From Rhodospirillales bacterium (GTDB lineage Bacteria > Pseudomonadota > Alphaproteobacteria > Rhodospirillales > Thalassospiraceae), in the NCBI GenBank assembly GCA_019634165.1, contig JAHQVT010000012.1, positions 117,528-181,527 on the forward strand: a stretch of DNA of 64,000 nucleotides. The letters are read 5' to 3'. How positions within the stretch are numbered: position 1 is the first letter of the stretch; each line of letters starts with the position of its first letter. Below, one piece after another: positions 17 through 16,052 of the stretch. The position numbers were made by a program, and so were the translations under genes. The notes beneath the pieces are model-generated. The model did no database searches and was not told the origin of the DNA. It worked only from the letters and a program-made list of their open reading frames with translations.

Positions 17-1066
17 ATGTCCGGTTTGGTCTTCGATTCCATTGTTAAAAAGTTCGGTGATTTTACTGCCGTTCATGAAACCAGCCTTACAATCCCGCAA
101 GGAAAATTTGTCTGTCTTCTTGGCCCTTCGGGCTGTGGCAAGACGACCTTGCTTCGGATGATTGCCGGTCTGGAAGACCCGACCACTGGACGTATTTTGT
201 TGGAAGGTAACGACGTTACCCGCATCCCGACCCATCAACGCGATTTTGGGATGGTGTTTCAAAACCTGGCCCTTTTCCCGCATCTGAGCGTTGGGGAAAA
301 TATCGCCTATCCGCTGCGCATTCGTGGCGGGTCCAAGGCCGATTGTTTCAAGGCCGTCAAACGCCTGCTTGATCTGGTGCAATTGCCTGATATGGCTGAT
401 CGTCCCGTTGCCAGGCTTTCAGGTGGTCAGAAACAGCGCGTTGCAATCGCGCGTGCCTTGGCGTTGGAGCCAAAGCTTTTCCTGCTTGATGAGCCGTTAT
501 CTGCCCTTGATGCGAAATTGCGCGAAAGCATGCAGATTGAACTTAAACAGCTTCAGCAAAAATTGGGCATTACCACGATTGTCGTGACCCATGATCAGCG
601 CGAAGCCATGACCATGGCCGATCTGGTTGTTGTGATGTCACAGGGCAAAGTCCATCAGGTTGCCCCACCGGTTGAAATTTACCGCAAACCCAAGGATGCC
701 TTTGTCGCCGACTTTATCGGTTCGACCAACCTGATTTCTGGGCGGGTGAGTGCAGCGGGCAAGATCGCTGTGGCGGGCGGCACTTTGCTGGCCGATGATC
801 TGCCAAAATCAGGCGATGTTACCCTTTCGGTTCGACCAGAAAATATCCGCTTAACCAAGGAAAACGGCGAAAATTCCCTCGGAACATTGACCGGGGATGT
901 TTCCTATATCCGCGATCTTGGCGCGAGTATCGAATTCTATCTGAACGTTGCAGGTCAACAGATCACGGCGATTACCACCCCGTCAGACCGACCGGATGTT
1001 GTTGCCGGTGACAGTGTTTCAGTCGCCTTCCCCAAAGATGCCTGTGTGGTGTTGGGGGACGCATGA
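17..1066 (+). CDS. ABC transporter ATP-binding protein, PotA/polyamine-opine family
   Basis: Walker A GPSGCGKT, signature LSGGQKQRVA, Walker B LLLDEP-like (FLLDEP), C-terminal TOBE-like domain. Confidence 0.93.
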   Translation: MSGLVFDSIVKKFGDFTAVHETSLTIPQGKFVCLLGPSGCGKTTLLRMIAGLEDPTTGRILLEGNDVTRIPTHQRDFGMVFQNLALFPHLSVGENIAYPLRIRGGSKADCFKAVKRLLDLVQLPDMADRPVARLSGGQKQRVAIARALALEPKLFLLDEPLSALDAKLRESMQIELKQLQQKLGITTIVVTHDQREAMTMADLVVVMSQGKVHQVAPPVEIYRKPKDAFVADFIGSTNLISGRVSAAGKIAVAGGTLLADDLPKSGDVTLSVRPENIRLTKENGENSLGTLTGDVSYIRDLGASIEFYLNVAGQQITAITTPSDRPDVVAGDSVSVAFPKDACVVLGDA

Positions 1067-1914
1067 AAATCAAACCCGGAAAGTTTTCCGATTACGCGGC
1101 AATAGGCTTCCCAGCCGGGATGCTAACGGTTTTCTTTGTCATACCGTTTGGCATCATGATCGCAATGTCGTTCTTTCAGCGCGTGCAGGGTGCCTTTTAT
1201 GAGCCGGCATTTGTCTTTGAAAACTATGCCCGGTTCCTAAGCACCTTCTTTGCGGGCATTCTTGGATTTTCGGTTGGATTGGCGGCCCTTGTTGCGGTGG
1301 TATCCGTCCTTTTAGCCTTTCCATTTACCTATATCCTGACCCGAATGGCACGCCAAACACAGGTCGTGTGGCTGGTGTTTTTGTTGTCAGTCCTGTCTTT
1401 GTCTGAAGTGCTGATTGGCTTTGGTTGGTCAACATTGTTGTCCCGAACAGCCGGGATCACCAATCTTTTGGTATCACTGGGCATCATGGATAAACCGATG
1501 TCACTGTCGCCAAGCTTCGGCGCGGTCATGACCGGCATGGTCTATCAGACATTCCCCTATACGGTTCTTGTCCTTTACCCCGCATTGTCACGCCTTGATC
1601 CGTCGCTGGTTGAAGCCGCACGGACATTGGGTTCTGGCCCGGCGCGCAGTTTCTTGAATGTCGTTGTTCCGGCCTTGCGCAACAGCATCGTCTCGACCCT
1701 TATCATGGTGTTTGTCTTTGCACTGGGCTGTTATTTGCTGCCGCAATTGTTGGGCAAACCATCGCATTGGACACTGTCGGTGCTGATCACGGATCAGGCG
1801 ATTTATCAGTCAAACATGCCGTTTGCTGCTGCCATGGCGGTGTTTCTTGTGCTGGTCAGCCTGTCGTTGGTCGCGATCTCGCTTCTCTATGGCAAAAAGG
1901 AGAATGCAGGATGA
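1063..1914 (+). CDS. ABC transporter permease, PotB-like
   Basis: Multiple TM helices, EAA loop (SLVEAARTLG); ATGA overlap with upstream gene. Confidence 0.92.
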   Translation: MKIKPGKFSDYAAIGFPAGMLTVFFVIPFGIMIAMSFFQRVQGAFYEPAFVFENYARFLSTFFAGILGFSVGLAALVAVVSVLLAFPFTYILTRMARQTQVVWLVFLLSVLSLSEVLIGFGWSTLLSRTAGITNLLVSLGIMDKPMSLSPSFGAVMTGMVYQTFPYTVLVLYPALSRLDPSLVEAARTLGSGPARSFLNVVVPALRNSIVSTLIMVFVFALGCYLLPQLLGKPSHWTLSVLITDQAIYQSNMPFAAAMAVFLVLVSLSLVAISLLYGKKENAG

Positions 1915-2717
1915 TCAACCGTTTTGTCTTGCGCCTGTTCCTTGCCGCAATGGCGCTGTTTCTTTCAGCTCCGTTGGTTGTGGTCGCAGGAGTATCGTTT
2001 AACGAAAAGAAGTCCCTTTCATTCCCGCCCGAAGGTTTCTCGCTAGATTGGTATGCTCAGATATTTACCGAAGATAGCTGGCGACAGGCCCTGTTTAACA
2101 GTCTGGGTGTGGCAATCGGGGCATCAAGCCTTTCGGTGATTATCGCCTTTCCGCTTGCGTGGTTCTTATGGCGGTTTCATGCCCCGTGGGCGCGGATTGT
2201 TCAGGTGCTTGGACTGGCACCATTCATCTTGCCGCCGGTGATTACCGCTCTTGGCTTCCTAAGTTTCTGGACCACGGCGGGGGCCTATGGGCAGCCATGG
2301 ACGGTGGTGATCAGCCACGGGATTTTCTTTGTTACCTTGCCGCTGGTCACGCTGACCCTTGGGTTCGAGGCCGTCGATGACAGTCTGGTCGAAGCCGCCG
2401 CGACGATGGGGGCGGATGACAGGACCATTTTACGGACAATCATTTTGCCGCTGATCCTGCCTTACATCATTTCGGGCATGGCTTTCGCGTTCGTGCTCTC
2501 GCTGAACGAATATATCGTTGCCTATATGGCGGTCGGCTTCACGGTCGAGACCCTGCCGATCAAGATTTTCAATTCCCTGCGATATGGCTACACGCCAACC
2601 ATGGCCTCGGTCACTGTGCTGTTTGTCGCGGTGGCGATAGTGGTGTTTGGTTTGATTGCACGCTTTGGCGATCTGCCGCGTCTACTTGGCGCCTGGCGTC
2701 ATGACGAGGACAGCTAA
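1911..2717 (+). CDS. ABC transporter permease, PotC-like
   Basis: Start re-called to ATG 1911 (ATGA overlap); SFNEKKSLSFPPEGFSLDWY motif and EAA loop (LVEAAATMGA). Confidence 0.92.
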   Translation: MINRFVLRLFLAAMALFLSAPLVVVAGVSFNEKKSLSFPPEGFSLDWYAQIFTEDSWRQALFNSLGVAIGASSLSVIIAFPLAWFLWRFHAPWARIVQVLGLAPFILPPVITALGFLSFWTTAGAYGQPWTVVISHGIFFVTLPLVTLTLGFEAVDDSLVEAAATMGADDRTILRTIILPLILPYIISGMAFAFVLSLNEYIVAYMAVGFTVETLPIKIFNSLRYGYTPTMASVTVLFVAVAIVVFGLIARFGDLPRLLGAWRHDEDS

Positions 2718-2779
2718 TGCAATCTACGCCCGCAATTTCAAACAATCAGAAACGTCCCACACGGTATTAGGAGGCCACC

Positions 2780-3835
2780 ATGGTTAACAGTGAAAAGCTT
2801 GCGAAACTCCGCGAAAAATATGGCAATGCCAAAGGCGGCGATATGTTCGATCCGCATTTTAAGGAAGTTGCTGAAACCCAGTTTTCCGCAAGCGGTGAAC
2901 GCAAGTGGCCGTTTGCCGGTGTGTCGACATTCCTTGATGCGCCTTTTGCGCCCGATGCGGCCAAAACCAACTTTGACGGTATTGATGTTGCCTTGGTCGG
3001 TGTGCCGATGGATTTGGGGGTGACCAACCGTGCCGGTGCGCGTCTTGGCCCGCGTGCGGTACGTAACATTGAACGCATTGGTCCGTATGAACATGTGTTG
3101 CGCATGGTGCCCGGTGCCCAATGCGCGGTTGCCGATATTGGCGATGTTCCGTTCAGAAGCCGCTTTTCTTTGGAAAAATGCCATGAGGACATCGAACAGT
3201 ATTTTAATAAAATTGTTGATGCTGGTGTCATTCCAATTGCGATTGGCGGGGATCATTCAATCACCTATTCCATCCAGCGTGCAGTTGGTAAAGACCGCCC
3301 GGTCGGCATGATCCATCTGGATGCTCATTGTGACACCAGCGGCGAATATGAAGGGGCAAAATTCCATCATGGGGGGCCGTTCCGTCAATCGGTTATGGAT
3401 GGTGTTCTTGATCCGGAACGCACCATTCAGATCGGTATTCGCGGTGGTGCGGAATATCTCTGGGAATTTTCCTATGACAGCGGCATGACCGTGATCCATG
3501 CCGAAGAAGTCCCGCAAATGGGGGTTGAGGCCGTCATTGCCAAGGCGCGTGAAGTCATTGGTGATGGCCCGGTTTATCTGTCCTTTGACGTTGATTGCCT
3601 TGATCCGTCCTTTGCACCGGGCACCGGAACACCGGAAATCGGTGGTCTGACATCGCGTGAAGCATTGGCCATTTTGCGCGGGCTTAAGGGTCTTGATTTT
3701 GTTGGTGCCGATGTGGTCGAGGTTGCCCCACAATATGATGCCACCACCAACACCGCCCATGCCGGTGCGCAGGTTCTGTTCGAAGAATTATGTTTGGTGA
3801 CCGATGCGTTTAAACGTCGCAAGGGCGGGGCATAA
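2780..3835 (+). CDS. Agmatinase/ureohydrolase family protein
   Basis: GGDHS, DAHCD, SFDVDCLDP and GTGTP metal-binding motifs; AGGAGG RBS; exact substrate not determinable. Confidence 0.9.
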   Translation: MVNSEKLAKLREKYGNAKGGDMFDPHFKEVAETQFSASGERKWPFAGVSTFLDAPFAPDAAKTNFDGIDVALVGVPMDLGVTNRAGARLGPRAVRNIERIGPYEHVLRMVPGAQCAVADIGDVPFRSRFSLEKCHEDIEQYFNKIVDAGVIPIAIGGDHSITYSIQRAVGKDRPVGMIHLDAHCDTSGEYEGAKFHHGGPFRQSVMDGVLDPERTIQIGIRGGAEYLWEFSYDSGMTVIHAEEVPQMGVEAVIAKAREVIGDGPVYLSFDVDCLDPSFAPGTGTPEIGGLTSREALAILRGLKGLDFVGADVVEVAPQYDATTNTAHAGAQVLFEELCLVTDAFKRRKGGA

Positions 3836-3838
3836 GTC

Positions 3839-4642
3839 ATGAAAATTGCGGTTTATCAGTCCGGCCCAAACGCAGTCATTGATAAACCGACCCGGATCGC
3901 GAGCCTTGCACGCCGCGCGCGTGAGGCCCGCGATGCCGGTGCCGAGTTGATCGTGGCACCTGAAATGTATTTGACCGGCTATAATATTGGCCGCGAAAAG
4001 ATTCTGTCGGAATCCGAACCGTTGTCGGGTGAAAGCCTGTCGGCGGTATGTGATATCGCGCGAGAAACCGGCATTGCGATTGTGGTTGGCTTTGGCGAAT
4101 TGGGCGATGACGGGCGCAATTACAATTCCTGCGCATTGTTTGATAAAACCGGCAAACGGCGTTTGCTGCACCGTAAAATTCAGTTGTTTGGTGAGCTTGA
4201 CCGCACGTGTTTTGCACCGGGCAATAACATGCCGCTGGTGATTGACTGGAACGGCATCAAAGTATCGATGCTGATCTGCTATGACGTTGAATTTCCTGAA
4301 TTGGTGCGCAGCATTGCGTTAAAGGGATGTGATCTTTTATTGGTCCCAACCGCCCAGATGGCTCCCTATGATCGGGTGGCGGAAATGATGGTTCCCATAC
4401 GTGCGATGGAAAGTCAGATGTTTCTGGCCTATGCCAATCGTTGCGATCAGGAAGGCGCGCTTGATTATGTTGGCAAAAGCGTGATCTGCAGCCCATGGTG
4501 CGACCTTGCCCGTGCGGGGGATCAGGATGATCTGATCGTGGCTGATCTGGATTTTGCTGCGTTGAAAAAATCACGCGCCGAATTCCCGTATATCGCAGAT
4601 CGACGCCCGGAAAGCTATTTGGGCATTCTTGACGAAAATTGA
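3839..4642 (+). CDS. Carbon-nitrogen hydrolase (nitrilase superfamily) amidase, DavA-like
   Basis: Catalytic triad contexts PEMYLTGY, RKIQLFG, ICYDVEFPE. Confidence 0.9.
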   Translation: MKIAVYQSGPNAVIDKPTRIASLARRAREARDAGAELIVAPEMYLTGYNIGREKILSESEPLSGESLSAVCDIARETGIAIVVGFGELGDDGRNYNSCALFDKTGKRRLLHRKIQLFGELDRTCFAPGNNMPLVIDWNGIKVSMLICYDVEFPELVRSIALKGCDLLLVPTAQMAPYDRVAEMMVPIRAMESQMFLAYANRCDQEGALDYVGKSVICSPWCDLARAGDQDDLIVADLDFAALKKSRAEFPYIADRRPESYLGILDEN

Positions 4643-5523
4643 TCAAGGCTTGCGATAAAGGCACCGGGGCTGACCCCCCACATTGCCTTGAAATGGCGGT
4701 TCAGATGGCTTTGATCTGAAAACCCGGTCGCAGCCGCGACATCGGCAATCGGTTCGCCGTCAAACAGCATCCGCTTGGCGCGGCGCAATCGCATATGATT
4801 GAAATAGGCGTGCGGCGGAAGCCCGGTGGCCGCGCGAAACACGCGCAGCAAATGAAACCGGCTTATCCCGGTAAGGGTTGCCAAATCATCCAGTGCGATA
4901 TTCTCATCAAGATGGGCTTGCATATAATCAATCACCGTCTGGACCCGTTTGTCTTCTGATCCGGGGCGATAAAGATAAGGCGGGGCATCCGCGTGACGCA
5001 GGGCCAAGCGTGCAGCACTGTATAAAAGCTGACTGTCGCGTTCGAGCAAGCTGGTTGTTTGTGCGAAATCTGGTCGGAACATGCGGTGCAGTGAGCGAAG
5101 CTGCAAATGCAGTTCCGGGTCATCAATCACGCAATTACCAAAAAATGGTAGGCCCTTGCTATTGGGGGATAATTCACTGACCAGATCACCAAACACGTCC
5201 GGGGCGATGAACATGATTTGGTATTGATAACCATCATCGGATGCCGGACCGCCATCGTGAACCTGCATCGGGTTCATCATTAAAAGCTGCCCACGCGATG
5301 CGACATAATTCGTGCCGCGCGTCATAAATTGTTCCGCCCCATTCAGGATGGTGCCAAAGGCGTAATAGTCATGACTGTGTTTGGGAAAGGTGAAGTTCTT
5401 ATAGTCAGCTTCAAACAAATCAATCCCGTTGGCTGCCCGCCAATGACGGGCAATCTCACGCGGGCGTCGGGTCGTGGTATTTCGGTTGCGCGACGCTGGG
5501 ATGTTTCGCAAAGCCTGTTCCAT
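4615..5523 (-). CDS. AraC family transcriptional regulator
   Basis: N-terminal cupin (FPKHSHDYY), C-terminal double HTH (GFSDQSHLNRHFK); start uncertain (5523-5595); 28-nt convergent overlap with the amidase. Confidence 0.9.
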   Translation of the reverse strand: MEQALRNIPASRNRNTTTRRPREIARHWRAANGIDLFEADYKNFTFPKHSHDYYAFGTILNGAEQFMTRGTNYVASRGQLLMMNPMQVHDGGPASDDGYQYQIMFIAPDVFGDLVSELSPNSKGLPFFGNCVIDDPELHLQLRSLHRMFRPDFAQTTSLLERDSQLLYSAARLALRHADAPPYLYRPGSEDKRVQTVIDYMQAHLDENIALDDLATLTGISRFHLLRVFRAATGLPPHAYFNHMRLRRAKRMLFDGEPIADVAAATGFSDQSHLNRHFKAMWGVSPGAFIASLDQFSSRMPK

Positions 5524-5884
5524 CGGGAAATTATAGCGATCCCAAATCATCCCGGCTTGTACAATATTGTCATGGCGACATTTTAAGGCAGGCATATTCG
5601 GATTTTTCTGGTTCTAAAATGCAGAAACCAGCGAGTCGTAGCCTAGATCACCCCAAAACCGTACTTTGCAGCTTTTAAAAAGGAATAAGATGCCCCCTAT
5701 ATCTGTATAGGGCAATATTCATATGAACATTAGTGGCGGGCTTAAATGTTGTTTTGCGCTGCGAAATGGTTCATAGCGACCAAATGCATCTAGATGAATG
5801 CGGATTTCATCTAAGTGTTACAAAACTAACTGATCTGCCGATGTAAGGATCGCGCCAAACATTCACATATTGTTTGGATATCTC

Positions 5885-8014
5885 ATGTTCCTTGACCGAA
5901 TTCGCATTGGTTCGCGCATCTTCGCCGGTTTCTTTGTTCTGGTTGTCTTGCTTGTCGGCCTAAGTGCGCTTTCATCGACTTATCTTCTTGGCTTTGGTGC
6001 GCATGCCGATCGTATCGCCAAAAGTACCGGCCTTGTTGGCCTTGCCAATGATTACGCTCTGAAACTTGAACGTTTATCAAATCAGGTTCTGCTGTTTGCC
6101 CAAACTGTTGATCTTCAGGATCGCGAAGGCATTGCCACCATCCGTCAAGCCGCAGAACAAAGTGGCGCGACCCTTGTTGAGGCGTTGCGCAATTCTGGTG
6201 ATCTTAACCGCGCCGATGCACTTGAAAGCTTAAGTGCGGAATATATCGGAACACTTGAGCCCCTTGTTCTGCGTGCCGAAAACCTGACGGCGGCGTCTGA
6301 TACGATGCTGCTTGGTGCGAACCAATTGGGCAAATCTGCGGCCAAGCTTGAAGAATTCATCGCCAAACGCGATCCGGCCATTGCGGAAAAATACAGCGAT
6401 AAACTTGGTGCGGCCAATCTGGCCGCCATCGTCAACAGTTTGCAATTCCCGATCTTGCGAACCGACGAAGCCCTTGAAACGGCGCGCAATCAGACATCTG
6501 CACTCACCGATCTTCAAGAAGAAATCAAATCGTCCTTTGACGGGCTTAAGCGTAACGACAAGAAACTGTTTTCTTATGCGATCCGCGACAATGATTTGCT
6601 GAAACAAGGTGCCAATCAGCTTGAAGCATCCATAAGCGGGTTCCGCCAATCGATGGATGATTTCAAATCTGCGGTGCATGAAGTGCAATCCATCACCCAA
6701 AATATCCGCCAAGAGGCAATGGCAAACCAAACCGCATTGGTCGAAGCCGCCCATGCAGAGTCGGAAAATTCTGCATTGACCAACATCATGGTCGCGGCGG
6801 GGGGCGTGATCATTGCGCTGGCACTGGCATTTGCAATTGCCATGAGCATCCTGCGCCCGCTTAAGCGGGTAAATGATGATATGACGCGCCTAAGTGAAAA
6901 TGACACCAATATTGATCTGGTCGATACCAAACGGTTCGATGAGTTTGGCGCCATGTCACGCACTGTTGCGATCTTCCGCGAAAACGCGCTTAAGATTGAA
7001 CAAATGGCCGAAGAACGCATCACCATGCAGCGTATCGAAGAAGAAAAACGTCGCGCATCCCTTGGTGCGATGGCCGAAACGATCGAAGGTGAAACCACCG
7101 GTCTTGTCAAATCCGTCAGCCATCAGGTCACCCGCATGCGCGAAGCCGTGACCGAGGTCGCCGCGGCGGCCGAACGTGTAACCGCCCAAACTCAAACCGC
7201 GACGGGTGCCGCACAAGACAGCCAATCGCATTCGAACGCAATTGGTGATGCGGCGAACCGTCTGACCAAGGCGATTGGATCAATTGCCAACCGGGTCGAA
7301 CATCAACGTGAGATTGCCCAAAATGCCGTCGGATCGACCGAACAATCGACCAAGGCGGTTGATGATCTTCGTGAAGTCGCTGTGAGCATCGAACAGATTG
7401 TTGATTTGATCCGTGGCATTGCCGGGCAAACCAATTTGCTGGCCCTGAATGCAACAATTGAAGCCGCCCGTGCTGGCGAAGCTGGCAAAGGTTTTGCTGT
7501 TGTCGCAGCCGAGGTCAAAAATCTTGCCGGTCAAACCGAACAGGCAACCAAACAGATTACCGAACATGTCAATGCAATGGGCGCGGTGACGGATCGTTGT
7601 GTTGCATCCATGGAAGAAGTCGGTGTGACGGTGCGTTCGATGATGTCGATATCTGACGAGGTCGCGGGGGATGTCGAACATCAACGCCGCGAAACCGAAG
7701 AAATCACCGGGGCCATTTCCCTTGCTGGCGATGCCGTGCGCAATGTCGGTACAGCAATTGGTGCCGTGTCCGATGATATCGAAGTCACCCGGAAGCTTAG
7801 CCTTGATCTGAACCGTCGTGCCGATGAAGTCGAACGCAACGTCACTGAACTGACCACTTCGCTTGATCGTGCTGTGGCCTCGGCTGATGGCGATGATCAG
7901 CTATCTGAGGGCGCAGACAATGATTGGGATGGCAATGATACATCCCCGTCCTATGATTTGCGCGATCAGAACCTTGTCGCTTTTCCGCACCGAAATATGC
8001 GTGGGGCTGCCTGA
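5885..8014 (+). CDS. Methyl-accepting chemotaxis protein (2 TM, HAMP, MA domain)
   Basis: [37 protein letters not shown] signalling motif; HAMP with DEFGAM. Confidence 0.95.
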
Positions 8015-8076
8015 TCCTGTGGTTTAAAGAAGATCACGTGTAACGGACATAAGTCTTGTCGTGATGTGAACGAAAT

Positions 8077-8118
8077 GGGCCTGCATGCCGTATCTGGTGT
8101 GCGGGCTCTTTGTTTTCC
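8077..8118 (+). terminator. Rho-independent terminator after the MCP
   Basis: 13-bp stem with G-U pairs (8077-8089/8096-8108) followed by TTTTGTTTT. Confidence 0.75.
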
Positions 8119-8374
8119 TATTCCATTTGAATTCATGTATCGGCAAGAAACGTAGAGTTTATCGAGAGTTGAGATACAAACTGAGACGTTTCTGATACAC
8201 TTTTTGTGTGGTTCTGGCGGGCAGGGTGCAATATCTTTCCCGGCATACGTATTTCAAAAAAGAACATCCACCCTTCTTGGGTAATAAACTGAAATACAAA
8301 AGTTTTCCCGAACGGGAACGGGGCTCTCACGGGGAAGGTCATATGATCCGATCCGACTTGGAAGTATCAATGCG

Positions 8375-9520
8375 ATGGCGCGTAAATCAACGCTTCTGAT
8401 CGCAGGTGTTGCACTGATTATCATTGCCGCATCTGCCTATATCTTTGCCAAGGACGAAATCACAGCACTTGTGTCGCCGGTTGGAGATTCGAAACAGGCT
8501 GAACAGCGCGGTGGATTCAACGGTGGTGATCGAAGCCTGCCGGTGATTGCCGAATATGCCAGTCTGATGGACGAAAAAACCGTGGTTGAATCTGTCGGGA
8601 CCGGCAAATCCGCACTGGGTGTTTCAATCTATCCGGCGGTGTCTGGCGAAGTGTCCGATGTCTTGGTGCGTGCCGGTGACAAGGTTGCCAAGGGGCAGGT
8701 TCTTGTGATCCTGAATTCCGAACGCGAACGTCTTGCCCGGGATTTGGCCGCCGTTCAGGCCAAAGATGCCCAGCAACTTTTGGGTCGCTATGAACAAGCC
8801 CGTCCATTGGGGGCCGTTGCAGAAAGTGAAGTCGATAGCGCCCGCACAGCATTGGCAGAAGCAAGAATTCAGCTTGATCAGGCCGAAGTAAATCTGGCCG
8901 ATCGCACCATTTTGGCCCCGTTTGACGGTATCATCGGCATCCCGCAGATCGAAGCAGGCGACCGGGTTGATAGTTCAACCATCTTGGTGACGCTTGATAA
9001 CATCGAAAGCATTCTGGTCGATTTTGAAGTCGCAGAAACCCGGTTTGACAATGTAAAGCCCGGTCAATCGGTTCGGGTTGAAACATGGAGCCTGCCGGGG
9101 GAGCTGTTTACGGGTGTTGTCGAATCAATCAGCAGCCGTATTGACCCTGAAAGCCGGACTTTTAACGTTCGCGCCCGTGTGCCCAATCCCAATGGCCGAT
9201 TGTTGGCCGGGATGTCCTTTGCGGTTTATGTCGATATTGAAGGCAAACAATACCCATCCGTTGCCGAAATTTCGGTTCTTTGGGGCGATGATGGCACCTA
9301 TGTCTGGCGGATAAAGGATGAAAAAGTTTCGCGCGTTCCTGTCCGTGTCGTGAAACGTACCAACGGCCGCATCTTGCTTGATGGCGGGGTTTCCAGGGGT
9401 GACTTGATTGTGGTTGAAGGTGTCTTGCGCCTGCGGCCGGGGCGAACCGTTGCGGCAACCATTCGCGGCAGCGATGAAACCGGCGTTGCCACCCGCGACG
9501 GTACTGGTGAAGGATCCTAA
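8375..9520 (+). CDS. RND efflux periplasmic adaptor (MFP)
   Basis: N-terminal TM anchor, lipoyl-like halves (VSGEV...GDKVAKGQVL, ILAPFDGIIG). Confidence 0.93.
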   Translation: MARKSTLLIAGVALIIIAASAYIFAKDEITALVSPVGDSKQAEQRGGFNGGDRSLPVIAEYASLMDEKTVVESVGTGKSALGVSIYPAVSGEVSDVLVRAGDKVAKGQVLVILNSERERLARDLAAVQAKDAQQLLGRYEQARPLGAVAESEVDSARTALAEARIQLDQAEVNLADRTILAPFDGIIGIPQIEAGDRVDSSTILVTLDNIESILVDFEVAETRFDNVKPGQSVRVETWSLPGELFTGVVESISSRIDPESRTFNVRARVPNPNGRLLAGMSFAVYVDIEGKQYPSVAEISVLWGDDGTYVWRIKDEKVSRVPVRVVKRTNGRILLDGGVSRGDLIVVEGVLRLRPGRTVAATIRGSDETGVATRDGTGEGS

Positions 9521-9522
9521 TC

Positions 9523-12500
9523 ATGACGGATGCGCCCGGTAATCAGGACCACAATGATCTTGCGTCGCTCAGTATTCGGCGGCCGGTTCTTGTGTGTGTG
9601 GTTTCACTTCTGATCATTCTTGCCGGTCTTGCGGCGATGTTGGGTGTCGAAATCCGCGAACTTCCCAATGTGGACCGTCCGACCGTCACGATTACCGCCG
9701 ATTATAGCGGTGCTTCGCCGGAAACGGTCGATTCTGAAGTAACCTCTGTTCTTGAAAGTGCAGCATCACGGGTTAGTGGCGTTAAAGACATCAATTCCCA
9801 AAGCGAAGAGGGCAATGCCCGCATCCGGATTGAATTTTACCCCGATGTTGAAATCAACGATGCCGCCAGCGACATTCGCGAAGCGATCAGTCGCGCATCG
9901 CGCAGTCTGCCCGATGGGGTCGAAGATGTGCGTGTGGTTAAGGCCGACGCCGATGCCAGTGCGATCATGCGCATGGCAGTTGTCAGCAACCGTCTAACCG
10001 AAGAAGAACTGGCAAATGTGGTTGATGATCAAATCAGCCCAGCACTTTTGGCCGTGCCCGGAGTTGCTGAAATAACAGTGAACGGGGACCGCGAAAAAGT
10101 CTTGCATGTGCGGATTGATCCGCTGCGCATCGCAAGTTACGGCCTATCGGTTCAAGACATTGCCGATGTGTTGCGAACCGCACAGTTTGACATTCCCGCT
10201 GGTAGTTTTGAATCAACCGATCAGAAACTGTTTGTGCGTGCCGATGCATCCGTTTGGGAAGTCGACAAGCTAAACCAGATGCTTGTTCGTGGGGCGATCC
10301 TTCTTGGCGATATTGCCGATATTTATTACGGCCCGGATGATGCGTCATCCTATGTGCGTCTTGATGGGCGTACTGTGATCGGGCTTGGTGTTGTGCGTCA
10401 GGCACAATCAAACACAATCGCAATTTCCAACGGTGTGCGTGATGTCGTTGAACGGCTGAACAGTCAATATGATGATCTTGACGTTTTCGTAAATTCCGAC
10501 GATGCGGTCTTTATCGAAGGCGCGTTGTGGGAGGTGATCTTTAGCCTTGCCTTGGCGGTCATTATTGTTATTGGCGTGCTCTATCTGTTCCTGCGTTCCT
10601 TTAGTGCAACATTAATCCCCACCGTGACCATTCCGATTGCCCTTATTGGGACCGTAGCAGCGATTTGGGCGATGGGATTTTCGATCAATATTCTGACCTT
10701 GCTTGCCCTTGTTCTGGCAACCGGGATGATTGTTGATGATGCGATCGTGGTTTTGGAAAACATTCAGCGCCGTCGTCATCAGGGGCTTGGTTCCATGGCC
10801 GCAGCGGTTTTGGGCACCCGACAGGTTTTCTTTGCGGTTATTGCAACGACCCTGACGTTGATTTCGGTATTCGTTCCGATTTCATTCCTGCCCAGCACGG
10901 CAGGAAGGCTTTTCCGCGAATTTGGCTTTGTTCTGGCCTTTTCAGTCGCAGTGTCGTCGTTCGTCGCCCTGACATTGTGCCCGATGCTGGCGTCGCGTCT
11001 TAAACATATCGATCCGCATGATGGGGATGCGGATAGAAAACCAAATTTGTTGGAACGCGTCGGGTTTTTCTGTGCCGGAATTTACCGCCAGATCCTTGAA
11101 CGGGTTTTGCGCAATCCAGTCGTCACCTTGATGATCTGCATTGTTGCCGGTGGTCTGGCCTTTGGCGCCTATAACACCGTGACCAAGGAACTGTTGCCCG
11201 AAGAAGATCGCGGGCGCATTTTGGTGTCATTGCGTGGGCCTGATGGGGTTGGTATTGATTATATGGACCGCCAGGTCGAGGCAGTTGAAGACATTCTGCG
11301 CCCGGTAGTTGATACCGGTGATGCCCATAATATCTACACGATTGTTGGTTTGTGGGACCCTAATCGCGCGTTGGTTATTGCACCTTTGGTGCCATGGGAT
11401 GAACGTATCCGCAGTCAGCAAGAAATCACCAGCAGCATACGTGGAAAACTCAACGCGCTTCCCGGTGTTCAGGCCGTTGTCTGGCAACCCAACAGCTTGG
11501 GGCTGCGCGGTGGAACAGGCGAAGGTTTGCAGTTTGCCCTGACCGGGACCAATTATCGCACCCTTGCGGCCAATGCGCGCGCCATGCAGCAGGAAATTGA
11601 AACCAGCTATCCCAACTTGACCGGGTTGCGGGTGTCCTATCAAACGACCCAGCCGCAGCTTCTGGTCAATATTGATCGCAAACGTGCCTTTGATCTTGGC
11701 ATTGCTATTGATGAACTTGATACGACATTACGTGCGATGATCGAAGGATATGAAGTCACCAATATCAATGTTGATGATCAAAACATTCCGGTCAAACTGC
11801 GCAGTGCTGTTGGCAGCATCAATGACCCATCGGATCTTGAGAACCTGTTTGTATCGGGAACCAATGGCCGCATCTTGCCATTGTCATCGGTTATCACGCT
11901 GAGCGAAGAAGCCGTCGCATCCGAACTTGAACGCGAAGGCCAACAACGTGCCGTGACGGTTTCGGCCAACCTTGCACCGGGCTACACGCTTGATGAAGCC
12001 GTTCGTGATGTAAACGCAGTTGCCGATAAAACCCTGCCACCGGGTATCGGCGTTTTGTTCTTGGGCGATGCTGCAGTCCTTGGTGAAACATCAAATGATG
12101 TGCAAATTACCTTCTTGATTGCGGTGCTTGTTGTGTTGCTTGTCCTTGCTGCACAGTTCGAAAGTTTCATGTCGGCTTTGGTGGTTGTTCTGACCGTGCC
12201 CTTTGGTTTGGCCGCAGCCATTTACGCGCTTAGCCTAAGTGGCACATCAATCAATATCTATAGCCAGATCGGGCTTGTGATGCTGGTCGGGCTAATGGCC
12301 AAAAACGGTATTTTGGTTGTCGAATTTGCCGATCAGCTCCGTGATGCAGGAAAATCCGTCCGCGAAGCTGTCCATGATGCGGCAATGGTGCGTCTGCGCC
12401 CGATCATGATGACAATGATTTCAACCGTTCTGGGCGGTTTGCCATTGGTGTTGGGATCGGGTGCTGGTGCCGAAGCCCGTGCCGCGATTGGCTGGGTCGT

Positions 12501-12714
12501 GTTTGGTGGGCTGGGCTTTGCAACGGTCTTTACCTTGTTCCTGACCCCGGTTCTGTATTTGCTGCTGGCACCTTTGGTGTCGGCCCGTGCAGATGGCAGC
12601 CTGAAATTGCAAACTCAGCTCCGTGCGGCAGAAGACATTCCCGATACGGGGGAAATTCCAGAAGACACCCTGCATGGCACCGCGCCAGACGGGATTGAAG
12701 GAAGTGCGAAATAA
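9523..12714 (+). CDS. RND efflux permease (AcrB/HAE family)
   Basis: 1063 aa; GMIVDDAIVVLENI, GLMAKNGILVVEFA and RLRPIMMT motifs. Confidence 0.96.
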   Translation: MTDAPGNQDHNDLASLSIRRPVLVCVVSLLIILAGLAAMLGVEIRELPNVDRPTVTITADYSGASPETVDSEVTSVLESAASRVSGVKDINSQSEEGNARIRIEFYPDVEINDAASDIREAISRASRSLPDGVEDVRVVKADADASAIMRMAVVSNRLTEEELANVVDDQISPALLAVPGVAEITVNGDREKVLHVRIDPLRIASYGLSVQDIADVLRTAQFDIPAGSFESTDQKLFVRADASVWEVDKLNQMLVRGAILLGDIADIYYGPDDASSYVRLDGRTVIGLGVVRQAQSNTIAISNGVRDVVERLNSQYDDLDVFVNSDDAVFIEGALWEVIFSLALAVIIVIGVLYLFLRSFSATLIPTVTIPIALIGTVAAIWAMGFSINILTLLALVLATGMIVDDAIVVLENIQRRRHQGLGSMAAAVLGTRQVFFAVIATTLTLISVFVPISFLPSTAGRLFREFGFVLAFSVAVSSFVALTLCPMLASRLKHIDPHDGDADRKPNLLERVGFFCAGIYRQILERVLRNPVVTLMICIVAGGLAFGAYNTVTKELLPEEDRGRILVSLRGPDGVGIDYMDRQVEAVEDILRPVVDTGDAHNIYTIVGLWDPNRALVIAPLVPWDERIRSQQEITSSIRGKLNALPGVQAVVWQPNSLGLRGGTGEGLQFALTGTNYRTLAANARAMQQEIETSYPNLTGLRVSYQTTQPQLLVNIDRKRAFDLGIAIDELDTTLRAMIEGYEVTNINVDDQNIPVKLRSAVGSINDPSDLENLFVSGTNGRILPLSSVITLSEEAVASELEREGQQRAVTVSANLAPGYTLDEAVRDVNAVADKTLPPGIGVLFLGDAAVLGETSNDVQITFLIAVLVVLLVLAAQFESFMSALVVVLTVPFGLAAAIYALSLSGTSINIYSQIGLVMLVGLMAKNGILVVEFADQLRDAGKSVREAVHDAAMVRLRPIMMTMISTVLGGLPLVLGSGAGAEARAAIGWVVFGGLGFATVFTLFLTPVLYLLLAPLVSARADGSLKLQTQLRAAEDIPDTGEIPEDTLHGTAPDGIEGSAK

Positions 12715-12715
12715 C

Positions 12716-14167
12716 ATGAAAAATAATCGTCTTTTCGCAGTTTCGGGCATCGCAATGTTGGTCGGGTTGGCCGGTTGTCAATCGGTTGGCCCCGATTACA
12801 CCGCACCGAATTTTGATCTGGTTGGCGCATATTCCCCGGAAATTCCAGTGATTGCCGCACGTCAGGCCGATCACGGACGTTGGTGGGAAAGCACGACTGA
12901 TCCGGTCTTACAACGGCTGATCGACGAAGGGGTTGCGAATAATATCGACCTTAAAATCGCAATCAGCCGTATTCGTGCGGCTGCGGCAACTGCGCGTGGT
13001 GTGTCTGGGGCCAATGGCCCAACACTTGATGCAAGTGTGGATGGATCGGCAGATCGCACAACCTCAAGCCGGGCCAGTGGCAATCGGGTGGATGATATTG
13101 GCTATGGTGCGGGGATTGATCTGTCCTGGACGGCCGATATCTGGGGTGGCCAATCACGCGAAGAAGAAGTTGCCGAAGCCGATTATTTGCAGCAGGTTTA
13201 TCTGCGTGAAGATGTCTATCGCACGATGATTGCCGACATCATCACCAACTATATCGAACTGCGTGGCACGCAAAAGCGCCTTGGTCTTTTACAAGACTCG
13301 CTTGATCTTCAACGTCAGACCAGAAACATCGTTCAGGTGCGGTTACAAACCGGGCTTGGTTCGGAACTTGATCTGTCGCGTGCGCGTGCCGAAGTCGCCG
13401 ACCTTGAGGCGACCGTACCAACCTTGCAGACCAGCATCGATCGATCCATCAATGCAATTTCGATCCTTGTCGGTGCTCAGCCGGGCAAACATCGTGATGC
13501 CTTGCTTGATACAGCACCCTTGCCAGAATTCCAAAGCAGTCCGCCGATTGGCATCCCCGCCGATCTTTTGCGCCGTCGCCCAGATGTCCGTGCCGCCGAA
13601 CTTTCCCTGATTGCGGCGACCTCGCAAATTGGGGTCGAAACCGCAACGCTATATCCTGAACTAACCCTAAGTGGGTCTTTGGCCTTGGGGGCGACGGGGT
13701 ATGGCACAGGTCCGATCATTCGAACCGTAATGGCAGCCATTGGTGCGGTGATTGATGCAACCCTTTATGACGGTGGGGAACGTCGGGCCAATATCACCGT
13801 TGCCGAAGAAGAAGCCGAACAGGCGTTCTTGACCTATCGCCAGACGTTGTTAAGCGCGATTGAGGAAGTTGAAAGTGCGATTTACGGCTATGTCGGGGCG
13901 ATGCAACAACGCGATTCCCTGATTGCATCCGTGCAATATCACCGTGATGCCTTTGATCAATCGCGGGTCCGTTATGTGCAAGGTCTGTCGGATTTTCTTG
14001 ATGTTCTTGATTCCCAGCGCAGTCTGACCGGATCGTTGCAATCCCTTGCCGATGCCGAGACGGATTTGGAACTTGAAACCATCAATCTTTACAGTGCGGC
14101 GGGGCTCAGTGTTGAAGATGTCGAACGCTTTGCCGCACAAGAAGGTATGACGCTGATCAACGGCTAG
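12716..14167 (+). CDS. RND efflux outer-membrane lipoprotein (NodT/OprM family)
   Basis: Start re-called to ATG 12716; lipobox LAGC then VGPDY; LLRRRPDVRAAE motif. Confidence 0.93.
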   Translation: MKNNRLFAVSGIAMLVGLAGCQSVGPDYTAPNFDLVGAYSPEIPVIAARQADHGRWWESTTDPVLQRLIDEGVANNIDLKIAISRIRAAAATARGVSGANGPTLDASVDGSADRTTSSRASGNRVDDIGYGAGIDLSWTADIWGGQSREEEVAEADYLQQVYLREDVYRTMIADIITNYIELRGTQKRLGLLQDSLDLQRQTRNIVQVRLQTGLGSELDLSRARAEVADLEATVPTLQTSIDRSINAISILVGAQPGKHRDALLDTAPLPEFQSSPPIGIPADLLRRRPDVRAAELSLIAATSQIGVETATLYPELTLSGSLALGATGYGTGPIIRTVMAAIGAVIDATLYDGGERRANITVAEEEAEQAFLTYRQTLLSAIEEVESAIYGYVGAMQQRDSLIASVQYHRDAFDQSRVRYVQGLSDFLDVLDSQRSLTGSLQSLADAETDLELETINLYSAAGLSVEDVERFAAQEGMTLING

Positions 14168-14230
14168 GTTTTGGCGCTGTGTGGTGCCAACAATTTGCAA
14201 AAACGAATATATCAGCGATCTGTGGCTTGA

Positions 14231-14245
14231 GTTTCGGACGTGTTC
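14231..14245 (+). promoter_or_regulatory. Candidate alphaproteobacterial LexA box
   Basis: GTTT-CGGACGT-GTTC, one mismatch to GTTC-N7-GTTC, 39 nt upstream of alkB ATG. Confidence 0.35.
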
Positions 14246-14283
14246 GGCCTAGGTCTTTGGCAGAATGACTTCCGGGGAAAACC

Positions 14284-14901
14284 ATGACCGGCGATCTGTT
14301 TGCCAATGAACCACCACGCAACCTTTTGCCGTTTGACGGCAAAGCATTGTTGCTGCGTGACATCATGCCACCCGATGACGCTGACCGGACCTTTGCCCGC
14401 CTTAAAACCGGCATTGTCTGGCAGCAGGAAATTGCCCGAATTCATGGCAAAGAAATCGCCGTTCCGCGCCTGACCGCATGGTATGGCGAAGTCGCCTATC
14501 GCTATAGCGGTGTTTACCATCCAGCCGCACCTTTTCCGTCAATCATCGCCCCGTTGCGAGATTTGGCCGAAGACCTTGCTGGGGGTGGGGTATCGTTTAA
14601 CACGGTTCTTTTGAACCAGTACCGCGATGGTCGCGACAGCGTTTCCTGGCATGCCGATGACGAAGAAGTGCTGGGGCAAAACCCGATTATTGCCAGTTTA
14701 TCGTTTGGCGAGGAACGCCGGTTTCATTTGCGACACAAGAAAACCGGTGATCGGATCAGCATTGATTTGCCGCATAACTCCGCCCTGATCATGTCGGGTG
14801 AAACGCAGCATTGCTGGCTTCATCAATTGCCCAAAACCGCAAGGCAGGTTGGGCCCCGTATCAATCTGACATTCCGCAAGACGCAATCGGAATCGCGATA
14901 G
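14284..14901 (+). CDS. alkB: Alpha-ketoglutarate-dependent dioxygenase AlkB (AlkB2/ALKBH3-like)
   Basis: VPRLTAWYG, NQYRDGRDSVSWHADDE (HxD), WLHQLPK, RINLTFR. Confidence 0.92.
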   Translation: MTGDLFANEPPRNLLPFDGKALLLRDIMPPDDADRTFARLKTGIVWQQEIARIHGKEIAVPRLTAWYGEVAYRYSGVYHPAAPFPSIIAPLRDLAEDLAGGGVSFNTVLLNQYRDGRDSVSWHADDEEVLGQNPIIASLSFGEERRFHLRHKKTGDRISIDLPHNSALIMSGETQHCWLHQLPKTARQVGPRINLTFRKTQSESR

Positions 14902-15005
14902 ATGTTTGACCAATGTCTTCTGGTAGAGACGCTTGGCTTCTGGCTATAGTGTAGCCAATTCAAACCAATAGCATCGTGAATACACGGGATCGGGGAACGG
15001 GACGC

Positions 15006-16052
15006 ATGGCAAAACGCGTAAAACTTCTGGATGTCGCAAAGGCTGCCGGGGTTTCGCAAGGAACAGCGTCGAATGCCTTTGGCAAACCTGATCTGGTGCG
15101 CCCGGAAGTTCGCGAACGCATTTTTGCGGCCGCCAAGGAACTTGGCTATCGCGGACCACATGTCATGGCCCGCATGTTGCGTACTGGTAAGGCCGGCGCG
15201 CTTGGCGTGGTTTTTCCTGACAATCTTGAATATGCCTTTACCGATCCGGCGGCGATTGAATTGCTGCGCGGGATCGGGCGTGAATGCGCCCATCACGGGG
15301 TCAATGTCATGATCATATCGGCAGAAAATCAAAAGCAGGCGATTGCTGCAGTCAATAATGCCGCGGTCGATGCATTTCTGGTCCATTGCTATTCGGATAA
15401 CAATGACATCATTGCCGCCATTCAGCGCCGCAATCAGCCGTTAATTAGCATTGATACCGATATTGCCGGTGCGGCGGGAAGTGTGGTCCTTGATGATCAT
15501 GCTGCGGCAAAGGGGGCGGCGGAACATCTGCTTGATTGTGGTGCGAAAAAGTTTGCTATTCTGTTGTTGCAGGCAACTGAACATGACCATTTTGGTCCGA
15601 TGAATGCCAACCGCGTTGGCGCAGCCAGCCACCGTGTCGTGCGCGAACGATTGGCAGGCTATCATGACGCCTTGGTCGAGGCCGGGATCGCACCTGATGA
15701 TGTGATCCATATCGAATGCGACAACCAATCTGAACATAGTGCTCGGCTGACTGTCGAAATGTTGGAAAAACACCCCGAAATTGACGGCATCCTTGCCATG
15801 TCTGATGTCATTGCGATTGGTGCTATTGATGCCGCTCATACGGTTGGGCGCAAGGTGCCAGATGATCTTAAAATCATCGGCATTGACGGGATTGTGGCGG
15901 GCGAACGCAGCGATCCCCCTTTAACGACGATGTGTCAGGATTCGGTTGAAAAAGGCCGTCTGGCCGCTGAAATGGCGCTGTCAGATGAAGGCGGCAAAGC
16001 CATCACCCTTTCAACCAAACTGTTGCTACGCGGCTCAACCCAGTCGCGTTAA
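15006..16052 (+). CDS. LacI family transcriptional regulator
   Basis: N-terminal HTH LLDVAKAAGVSQGTASNAF; periplasmic-binding-fold C-terminus (VPDDLKIIGID, PPLTT). Confidence 0.92.
   Translation: MAKRVKLLDVAKAAGVSQGTASNAFGKPDLVRPEVRERIFAAAKELGYRGPHVMARMLRTGKAGALGVVFPDNLEYAFTDPAAIELLRGIGRECAHHGVNVMIISAENQKQAIAAVNNAAVDAFLVHCYSDNNDIIAAIQRRNQPLISIDTDIAGAAGSVVLDDHAAAKGAAEHLLDCGAKKFAILLLQATEHDHFGPMNANRVGAASHRVVRERLAGYHDALVEAGIAPDDVIHIECDNQSEHSARLTVEMLEKHPEIDGILAMSDVIAIGAIDAAHTVGRKVPDDLKIIGIDGIVAGERSDPPLTTMCQDSVEKGRLAAEMALSDEGGKAITLSTKLLLRGSTQSR

What the first reader, a model, noticed from the sequence alone, without database searches (positions are those of the whole stretch)
17..4642. Importer + ureohydrolase + DavA-like amidase: candidate guanidino-amide catabolic operon
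Seen: five co-oriented genes, the last four closely spaced or overlapping. Known: the arginine monooxygenase route uses an omega-amidase (guanidinobutyramidase) and a ureohydrolase (guanidinobutyrase). The amidase here closely resembles, from memory, P. putida DavA (PEMxLTGYNIG, LFGELDR, ICYDxEFPE). Inference: the operon imports and degrades a guanidino-amide or a related guanidine compound, rather than performing plain agmatine-to-putrescine conversion. The ureohydrolase also has a long N-terminal extension (MVNSEKLAKLREKYG...).
Basis: partly seen in the sequence, partly recalled or inferred. Interest (0 to 1): 0.55.

Follow-up and report, generated by a model that had tools for sequence, protein, structure and literature searches.

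The report
Guanidino-compound uptake and hydrolysis operon
A marine Thalassospira carries an operon that most likely imports an arginine-derived guanidino compound, perhaps the amide 4-guanidinobutyramide, and splits it into GABA, urea and ammonia; the chemistry is known, but this importer-linked form, which lacks the usual oxidising enzyme, has not been studied.

Summary
The unit has six genes: a binding protein lies just before the window and a divergent LysR regulator lies before that.

The "agmatinase" is 66% identical to Sinorhizobium meliloti SpeB2, including its 44-residue N-terminal extension. Published assays show SpeB2 hydrolyses 4-guanidinobutanoate, 4-guanidinobutanal and 2-ketoarginine, and barely touches agmatine or arginine.

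The amidase belongs to the DavA family. In 69 of its 80 closest homologue loci it sits beside a DavB-type amino-acid 2-monooxygenase. Five actinobacterial loci and Zavarzinia add a ureohydrolase, which gives the arginine 2-monooxygenase route. No such monooxygenase was found in this genome, nor in nine other genomes that hold the ureohydrolase with the amidase and/or the importer, although control genomes did match.

Ureohydrolase and amidase lie together in seven alphaproteobacterial genera, five of them also with the importer. One Thalassospira species lacks importer and amidase together.

Best reading: salvage of an external 4-guanidinobutyr-type compound, plausibly the amide. The substrate is untested, and the amidase differs at 11 of 64 family-conserved positions. 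I class it as a new variant of a known pathway, of moderate interest.

The parts
17..1066 (+). ABC importer ATP-binding subunit (PotA/PhnT2-like, with a TOBE domain)
   Evidence: PF00005 and PF08402. It scores below every NCBIfam equivalog cut-off. It is 89% identical in T. lucentensis, and 58-69% identical orthologues lie next to the ureohydrolase clade in other genera.
1063..1914 (+). ABC importer permease 1 (PotB-like)
   Evidence: PF00528. ATGA overlap with the ATPase stop. Orthologues are 63-75% identical in related operons.
1911..2717 (+). ABC importer permease 2 (PotC-like); the start is revised to the ATG at 1911
   Evidence: PF00528. ATGA overlap and an upstream AAGGAG. It has the same length, 268 aa, as the T. 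lucentensis gene.
2780..3835 (+). SpeB2-type ureohydrolase (guanidinobutyrase-like), with a conserved 44-residue, two-helix N-terminal extension
   Evidence: PF00491, E 1e-89. 66% identical to S. meliloti SpeB2. Metal ligands H159, D181, H183, D185, D270, D272 and the catalytic H197 are invariant. The best solved relatives are GpuA (48%) and GbuA (43%). The AF2 model has pLDDT 90.5, with helices at 4-14 and 25-34.
3839..4642 (+). DavA-family carbon-nitrogen hydrolase (omega-amidase); candidate 4-guanidinobutyramide or omega-amino-amide hydrolase
   Evidence: PF00795. The E42/K113/C147 triad is present. It lies inside the clade of monooxygenase-linked DavA homologues. dN/dS against T. lucentensis is 0.16. 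It deviates at 11 of 64 family-conserved positions.
4615..5595 (-). Convergent AraC-family regulator; a neighbour, probably not part of the unit
   Evidence: PF12833 and PF02311. It stays at the same place in a Thalassospira species that lacks the importer and amidase (L128). It is not found beside the ureohydrolase in other genera.

Best explanation
This is a LysR-controlled uptake-and-hydrolysis operon for an arginine-derived C4 guanidino compound.

Proposed mechanism:
1. A PotD-like binding-protein ABC importer brings the compound in.
2. A DavA-family amidase turns a terminal carboxamide into the acid and releases ammonia.
3. A SpeB2-type ureohydrolase removes the guanidino group as urea and leaves GABA.

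The most likely extra substrate conferred by the amidase is 4-guanidinobutyramide. The order of the two hydrolytic steps is open, because SpeB2 accepts the uncharged aldehyde and DavA-type enzymes act on omega-amino amides. Urea can then be used through the genome's urease.

No DavB-type 2-monooxygenase was found in the genome, so the amide would have to be made by other organisms.

Shown: gene content and order, family membership, orthology to SpeB2, co-conservation of the parts, and no monooxygenase found where controls matched. Inferred: co-transcription, the transported ligand, the amidase's substrate and the external origin of that substrate.
For: Ureohydrolase:
- It is 66% identical to S. 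meliloti SpeB2 over 340 residues, including the N-terminal extension. P0350 begins MAWDEQK, exactly what the SMc01967 cloning primer encodes.
- SpeB2 V0 values in umol/min/mg are: 4-guanidinobutanoate 1.11, 5-guanidino-2-oxopentanoate 1.49, 4-guanidinobutanal 2.69, agmatine 0.03, arginine 0.00.

Amidase:
- 69 of its 80 best homologue loci have a roughly 560-aa PF01593 monooxygenase beside it.
- Five actinobacterial loci add a GbuA-like ureohydrolase.
- Zavarzinia aquatilis has LysR | SBP-ATPase-permease-permease-ureohydrolase-ADH-amidase-monooxygenase-TPP enzyme, with orthologous parts.
- A 4-guanidinobutyramide hydrolase acting after an arginine monooxygenase is an established Streptomyces activity (PMC5082578). 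Its protein family was not checked here.

No monooxygenase:
- None was found in this genome, which is 98.75% complete, nor in nine other genomes carrying the pair or the importer. Three control genomes did match.

Co-conservation:
- Ureohydrolase and amidase are adjacent in Thalassospira, Ancylobacter, Zavarzinia, Sneathiella, Stappia, Neorhizobium and one unnamed genus. Two gene orders occur.
- Thalassospira G731 keeps LysR-ureohydrolase-AraC but has neither the amidase nor the binding protein anywhere in its genome.
- All genes are under purifying selection (dN/dS 0.03-0.16).

Genome context:
- Urease is present.
- A separate GpuA-like ureohydrolase with a TauA/NMT1-type importer already serves acidic guanidino compounds.
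Against: - No enzyme or binding assay exists for any Thalassospira protein of this operon.
- The amidase differs from monooxygenase-linked family members at 11 of 64 conserved positions, including YGYPE to VGFGE and YRKTHL to HRKIQL next to the catalytic lysine. It also sits on a long branch, so its substrate may have shifted.
- Azospirillum cavernae and Rhizobium etli carry the orthologous importer and ureohydrolase without the amidase. The importer's core ligand may therefore be the acid or another guanidino compound.
- 4-Guanidinobutyramide is not documented as an environmental nutrient in the papers I could search.
- The binding protein is only distantly PotD-like (65 bits), which says nothing about its ligand.
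Confidence: 0.5

Rival explanations
1. The operon is in essence a 4-guanidinobutyrate (or other guanidino-acid, aldehyde or keto-acid) uptake and guanidinobutyrase system. The amidase would be an accessory with a different, unknown amide substrate, or a leftover from an ancestral monooxygenase-containing operon.
For: - SpeB2 already handles the acid, the aldehyde and the 2-oxo acid.
- The importer plus ureohydrolase occur without the amidase in Azospirillum cavernae (with a TPP decarboxylase and an aldehyde dehydrogenase) and in R. etli.
- The amidase has the highest dN/dS of the operon (0.16) and altered pocket-region residues.
- A LysR-ureohydrolase core persists alone in Thalassospira G731.
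Against: - The amidase is intact, keeps its catalytic triad, starts 3 nt after the ureohydrolase stop and is under purifying selection.
- It recurs next to this ureohydrolase clade in seven genera and in two gene orders.
- The amidase and importer are gained or lost together within Thalassospira.
- The genome has a second, GpuA-like ureohydrolase with a TauA-type importer that is better suited to acidic guanidino compounds.
Confidence: 0.3
2. The operon is a polyamine system as the database names suggest: a Pot-type spermidine/putrescine importer, an agmatinase (agmatine to putrescine) and an N-carbamoylputrescine amidase.
For: - The ureohydrolase passes the TIGR01230 agmatinase cut-off (195.9 against 174.3 bits), and homologues are named agmatinase by NCBI.
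- The transporter's nearest named models are PotA, PotB, PotC and PotD.
Against: - The characterised orthologue SpeB2 shows 0.03 umol/min/mg on agmatine against 1.1-2.7 on 4-guanidinobutyr-type substrates.
- The score is below the NF002564 agmatinase cut-off (287.5 against 302).
- The amidase scores 95.9 bits against a cut-off of 410 for AguB and belongs to the DavA clade.
- Agmatinase and N-carbamoylputrescine amidase belong to alternative routes, not consecutive steps (established pathway knowledge).
- All Pot models score far below their cut-offs.
Confidence: 0.05
3. The operon degrades a different guanidino amide or related natural product, for example a homoarginine-derived C5 amide, 3-guanidinopropionamide or an antibiotic fragment, rather than the arginine-derived C4 series.
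For: - The ureohydrolase is slightly closer to GpuA (C3 substrate) than to GbuA among solved structures.
- The amidase's residues near the catalytic lysine differ from those of canonical family members.
- Neighbours of this ureohydrolase clade vary widely: short-chain dehydrogenases, aminotransferases and amidase-signature enzymes.
Against: - The only assayed clade member works on C4 guanidino compounds.
- Relatives' operons contain AruI-like TPP decarboxylases, aldehyde dehydrogenases and AruH-like aminotransferases, which are typical of arginine catabolism.
Confidence: 0.12

Closest known systems
Sinorhizobium meliloti SpeB2 (SMc01967) and its locus SMc01962-SMc01969 (Flores-Tinoco et al. 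2020, PMC7268258)
   Same: - The ureohydrolase is 66% identical and has the same N-terminal extension.
- It is flanked by a PotD-like binding protein, an ATPase and two permeases that are co-regulated with it (PMC2912261 and PMC3596328).
- Related Rhizobiaceae, Sneathiella and Stappia loci add a LysR regulator, an aminotransferase and a CN-hydrolase.
- SMc01962 has the size of a CN-hydrolase (780 bp).
   Different: - The gene order differs: ureohydrolase first and amidase last in the rhizobial type, against importer first and ureohydrolase-amidase last here.
- The amidases of the two types are only 33-41% identical.
- The role of the transporter and of SMc01962 was not studied in S. meliloti.
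- I could not fetch the S. meliloti chromosome to confirm that SMc01962 is a CN-hydrolase.
Arginine 2-monooxygenase route: arginine monooxygenase, 4-guanidinobutyramide hydrolase and guanidinobutyrase, including the Streptomyces arginoketide starter-unit pathway (PMC5082578)
   Same: - It uses an amidase step followed by a guanidino-acid step.
- The amidase here is a homologue of the CN-hydrolases that sit beside DavB-type monooxygenases, with a ureohydrolase also present in five actinobacterial loci and in Zavarzinia.
   Different: - No monooxygenase was found in this genome.
- An ABC importer takes its place in the operon.
- The ureohydrolase belongs to the SpeB2 clade, not to the GbuA-like type seen in the actinobacterial loci.
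- In Streptomyces the acid goes on to CoA ligation, not to catabolism.
Pseudomonas davBA (lysine 2-monooxygenase and 5-aminopentanamidase)
   Different: There is no DavB partner. The amidase is paired with a ureohydrolase and an importer. It deviates at 11 of 64 family-conserved positions.
Pseudomonas aeruginosa GpuA and GbuA (PDB 3NIP, 3NIO)
   Same: They have the same fold and metal site and are the best solved relatives: 48% and 43% identity, TM-score about 0.8 over the core. Like the operon here, the P. aeruginosa genes are under LysR-type control (from memory, not checked).
   Different: - They are not orthologues: another gene of this genome matches GpuA better (376 against 298 bits).
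- This clade has an extra 44 N-terminal residues.
- It has FHHGGPFR where GpuA and GbuA have an HGT motif.
- It has Gly101 where GbuA has the carboxylate-capping Arg72.

Membership tests
Ureohydrolase (arginase) superfamily, PF00491 | Binuclear-metal ligands (His, Asp, His, Asp, Asp, Asp) and the catalytic His and Glu | tested here: met
   PF00491, E 1.4e-89. H159, D181, H183, D185, D270, D272, H197 and E314 are invariant in 61 aligned sequences.
SpeB2-type ureohydrolase clade (S. meliloti SMc01967) | High identity to SpeB2 across the full length, including the roughly 44-residue N-terminal extension and the clade signatures (ERIGPY, FHHGGPFR, APQYD) | tested here: met
   66% identity over 340 aa to P0350, whose N-terminus equals the SMc01967 primer translation. 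The signatures appear in alignments A1 and A2. The extension folds as two helices at pLDDT about 90.
SpeB2-type ureohydrolase clade (S. meliloti SMc01967) | Activity on 4-guanidinobutanoate, 4-guanidinobutanal and 5-guanidino-2-oxopentanoate, but not on agmatine or arginine | not testable with these tools
   Known only for the S. meliloti enzyme. It needs an assay of the Thalassospira protein.
3-Guanidinopropionase GpuA (orthology) | It should be the genome's best match to P. aeruginosa GpuA | tested here: not met
   The paralogue at G000:C6:66238-67137 scores 376 bits against 3NIP, and this gene scores 298.
Agmatinase SpeB | Score above the curated model cut-offs, and agmatine as the preferred substrate | tested here: inconclusive
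   It passes TIGR01230 (195.9 against 174.3) but fails NF002564 (287.5 against 302). The characterised orthologue has about 1-3% relative activity on agmatine.
DavA family (omega-amidase partner of amino-acid 2-monooxygenases) | CN-hydrolase fold with the Glu-Lys-Cys triad, and placement inside the clade of monooxygenase-linked homologues | tested here: met
   PF00795. E42, K113 and C147 are present. It lies within the 87-sequence clade, separate from the genome's own paralogues (SH-aLRT 85).
DavA family (omega-amidase partner of amino-acid 2-monooxygenases) | An adjacent DavB-type flavin 2-monooxygenase | tested here: not met
   None is in the operon and none was found in the genome, while the control genomes G224, G404 and G405 matched.
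DavA family (omega-amidase partner of amino-acid 2-monooxygenases) | Conservation of family-specific positions | tested here: inconclusive
   53 of 64 positions that are at least 92% conserved are kept. The 11 changes include residues beside the catalytic Lys.
N-carbamoylputrescine amidase AguB | Score above the TIGR03381 cut-off | tested here: not met
   95.9 bits against a cut-off of 410.25.
PotABCD-type binding-protein ABC importer | Binding protein, two permeases and an ATPase with a TOBE domain; equivalog-level match to the Pot proteins | tested here: inconclusive
   The architecture is met. All PotA, PotB, PotC, PotD, PotF, PotG, PotH and PotI equivalog scores are far below their cut-offs, so the ligand is undefined.
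Arginine 2-monooxygenase pathway (complete) | Monooxygenase, amidase and guanidinobutyrase in one organism | tested here: not met
   Candidates for the amidase and the ureohydrolase are present, but no monooxygenase was found.

The most novel reading that the evidence does not exclude
Marine and soil Alphaproteobacteria use this module to scavenge 4-guanidinobutyramide, or a close guanidino amide, released by other organisms' arginine 2-monooxygenases or oxidases. That would make a so far unrecognised amide a cross-fed nitrogen source. The PotD-like binding protein would be specific for a guanidino amide, and the DavA-type amidase would have been freed from its monooxygenase partner.
Probability: 0.35. 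Interest if true: 0.6.

Novelty: new variant of a known kind. Interest (0 to 1): 0.45.

Why it matters
Databases label these genes as an agmatinase, a polyamine transporter and a generic CN-hydrolase. The evidence here points instead to catabolism of guanidinobutyr-type compounds.

The same module occurs in Sinorhizobium, Rhizobium, Neorhizobium, Stappia, Sneathiella, Zavarzinia and Thalassospira. In that module only the ureohydrolase has ever been assayed.

If the amidase and importer act on a guanidino amide, three things would follow:
- a new nutrient and a cross-feeding link would be defined;
- many genome annotations would be corrected;
- the arginine transamination network described for rhizobial bacteroids would gain a missing piece.

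If they do not, the operon is still a cleanly testable case of a DavA-type amidase that has lost its monooxygenase partner.

Tried and rejected
I built neighbourhoods from fetched loci with my own ORF calling and tblastn instead.
- A greedy ORF caller gave spurious antisense ORFs in high-GC loci. I replaced it with GC3-aware calls.
- One Pfam call failed on a wrong reading frame.
- Promoter and terminator scans were at chance level.
- An exact-pattern search for the SMc01967 primer in 251 Rhizobiaceae genomes found nothing, because S. meliloti was not in the sample. The link was made instead through a named S. meliloti protein.
- The backbone of the amidase tree is unresolved. It cannot say whether the ureohydrolase association arose once or several times.
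I used bit scores, Foldseek and a reciprocal test instead.
- Literature searches for a guanidinobutyramide transporter or a marine occurrence found nothing.
- Guanidine hydrolase and metformin hydrolase readings were rejected: 22-30% identity and far lower scores.
- A DavB-like role for the genome's own PF01593 proteins was rejected. They are 454-468 aa and have no significant similarity to DavB-type enzymes.


Full report
**Anatomy.**
The window is G000:C12:117528-181527 of a genome that is 98.75% complete. The best amidase match is a Thalassospira sp. protein at 95% identity. ORF listing and Pfam confirm five co-oriented genes at 17-4642:
- an ABC ATPase with a TOBE domain;
- two BPD-type permeases;
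- an arginase-family protein of 351 aa;
- a CN-hydrolase of 267 aa.

The second permease starts at 1911 in an ATGA overlap. The ureohydrolase has an AGGAGG ribosome-binding site before its ATG at 2780, so its long N-terminus is real.

I fetched 10 kb upstream. An SBP_bac_8 binding protein ends 132 nt before the ATPase, and a divergent LysR regulator precedes it. A convergent AraC gene overlaps the amidase end by 28 nt. The unit is therefore LysR | SBP-ATPase-permease-permease-ureohydrolase-amidase. Co-transcription is inferred from spacing, because the consensus scans were at chance level.

**The ureohydrolase.**
Among solved structures the best matches are P. aeruginosa guanidinopropionase GpuA (298 bits, 48% identity) and guanidinobutyrase GbuA (265 bits, 43%). 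Agmatinases score lower, at 200-215 bits. It is not the GpuA orthologue, because another gene of this genome (C6:66238-67137) scores 376 bits against GpuA.

Homologues at about 70% identity are widespread in Alphaproteobacteria, and all carry the roughly 44-residue N-terminal extension. In an AF2 model with mean pLDDT 90.5 the extension forms two confident helices. The metal ligands and catalytic residues are invariant. Clade signatures include FHHGGPFR. Gly101 aligns with Arg72 of GbuA, the residue proposed to cap the substrate carboxylate.

The clade has a characterised member. An S. meliloti protein (P0350) that starts MAWDEQK, exactly what the published cloning primer for SMc01967 (speB2) encodes, is 66% identical to the window protein over 340 residues. 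Published V0 values for SpeB2, in umol/min/mg, are (PMC7268258 Appendix Table S4):

| Substrate | V0 |
|---|---|
| 4-guanidinobutanoate | 1.11 |
| 5-guanidino-2-oxopentanoate | 1.49 |
| 4-guanidinobutanal | 2.69 |
| agmatine | 0.03 |
| arginine | 0.00 |

The plain-agmatinase reading is therefore very unlikely. An uncharged tail is tolerated, which makes an amide substrate conceivable.

**The amidase.**
Its best solved relatives are short-chain amidases and nitrilases at about 136 bits. The AguB model scores 96 bits against a cut-off of 410.

I fetched the 80 best homologue loci from species genomes. In 69 of them a roughly 560-aa flavin amine-oxidase-family protein lies directly beside the CN-hydrolase. 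These proteins are 55-70% identical to one another, across the Pseudomonas davBA-type, actinobacterial and Zavarzinia loci. The window protein is 43-50% identical to these CN-hydrolases, keeps E42, K113 and C147, and falls inside their clade, apart from the genome's own paralogues.

Five actinobacterial loci contain monooxygenase, amidase and a GbuA-like ureohydrolase, which is the arginine 2-monooxygenase route. An arginine monooxygenase followed by a 4-guanidinobutyramide hydrolase is an established pair of activities in Streptomyces (PMC5082578). I did not check which protein family that hydrolase belongs to.

**No monooxygenase.**
A DavB-type query found nothing in this genome, while the control genomes matched at E below 1e-230. 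The genome's PF01593 proteins are 454-468 aa and unrelated to DavB.

The same negative result holds for T. lucentensis, two Ancylobacter species, the second Zavarzinia-genus genome, three Sneathiella genomes, G001 and Azospirillum cavernae. Only Zavarzinia aquatilis has the monooxygenase. There it sits inside the operon LysR | SBP-ATPase-permease-permease-ureohydrolase-ADH-amidase-monooxygenase-TPP enzyme, whose parts are orthologous to those of the window.

**Co-conservation.**
I located 29 loci of the ureohydrolase clade in an even sample of 400 alphaproteobacterial genomes, and 18 more in a phylum-level sample.
- The whole operon recurs in T. lucentensis at 84-96% protein identity and dN/dS 0.03-0.16.
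- Ureohydrolase and amidase are adjacent in Ancylobacter.
- Ureohydrolase-SBP-ATPase-permease-permease-amidase occurs in Sneathiella, Stappia, Neorhizobium and one unnamed genus, often with a LysR regulator and a class I/II aminotransferase.
- Azospirillum cavernae has importer-ureohydrolase-TPP decarboxylase-aldehyde dehydrogenase, which looks like the 2-ketoarginine route.
- R. etli has the importer and ureohydrolase only.
- In S. meliloti, SMc01963-67 are co-regulated.
- Thalassospira G731 keeps LysR-ureohydrolase-AraC at the same place but has no orthologue of the amidase or of the binding protein anywhere in its genome. Importer and amidase are therefore gained or lost together.

**Caveats on the amidase.**
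Across 64 positions that are at least 92% conserved in monooxygenase-linked family members, the Thalassospira enzyme differs at 11. The changes include YGYPE to VGFGE and YRKTHL to HRKIQL beside the catalytic lysine. The Ancylobacter and Zavarzinia enzymes differ at only 4-5 positions. The Thalassospira enzyme also sits on a long branch. Its substrate may therefore have drifted from that of canonical family members.

**Genome context.**
Urease is present. Two related modules exist elsewhere in the genome:
- a GpuA-like ureohydrolase with a TauA/NMT1-type importer and a LysR regulator;
- a second PotD-like importer with a 41%-identical CN-hydrolase, a class III aminotransferase, an M20 hydrolase, a flavin monooxygenase-like protein and an aldehyde dehydrogenase.

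This division of labour fits the idea that the window operon handles a non-acidic guanidino compound. That point is an inference.

**Verdict.**

My results agree with it and add the SpeB2 link, the negative monooxygenase searches backed by controls, and the within-genus co-variation.

The chemistry is known. The importer-coupled arrangement without a monooxygenase, and the role of its amidase, have not been studied in the papers I could search.

Noticed in passing
G000:C11:1771-13002 (locus L126): A second operon of similar design lies in the same genome: LuxR-type regulator | ABC ATPase-permease-permease-SBP_bac_8 binding protein-CN-hydrolase (41% identical to the window amidase, sharing its RKIQL motif)-class III aminotransferase-M20 hydrolase-flavin monooxygenase-like protein ... 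aldehyde dehydrogenase. It looks like an uptake and catabolic unit for an omega-amino amide or an acylated amine.
   Followed up: partly
G000:C6:63497-68335 (locus L127:5498-10336): The genome's better GpuA match (376 bits to PDB 3NIP) sits in LysR | ureohydrolase-NMT1/TauA-like binding protein-permease-ATPase. This is a likely importer-linked hydrolase for an acidic guanidino compound such as 3-guanidinopropionate or taurocyamine.
   Followed up: partly
L128 (Thalassospira G731:C12:163961-183001), 7850-11133: A sister species has only LysR | ureohydrolase (86% identical) | AraC at the same place. The four importer genes and the amidase are missing from the locus. No orthologue of the binding protein or the amidase was found anywhere in that genome, which is 100% complete.
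   Followed up: yes
L093 (Zavarzinia aquatilis), 3707-15018: This is the most complete version of the pathway seen: LysR | SBP-ATPase-permease-permease-ureohydrolase-Zn-ADH-amidase-DavB-type monooxygenase-AruI-like TPP enzyme. Both the amide and the 2-oxo-acid products of an arginine monooxygenase/oxidase could be funnelled to 4-guanidinobutyrate there. The genome also has a second DavB-type gene at C40:145711-147384.
   Followed up: partly
L095/L096, L108, L109, L111: In several other genera an amidase-signature (PF01425) enzyme lies 3-8 kb from the SpeB2-type ureohydrolase. This may be a non-homologous replacement for the CN-hydrolase, but the linkage is loose.
   Followed up: no
window 5870-8014 and 8375-9520: Downstream of the AraC gene lie a 714-aa methyl-accepting chemotaxis protein and an RND-type periplasmic adaptor. 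I saw no link to the operon.
   Followed up: no
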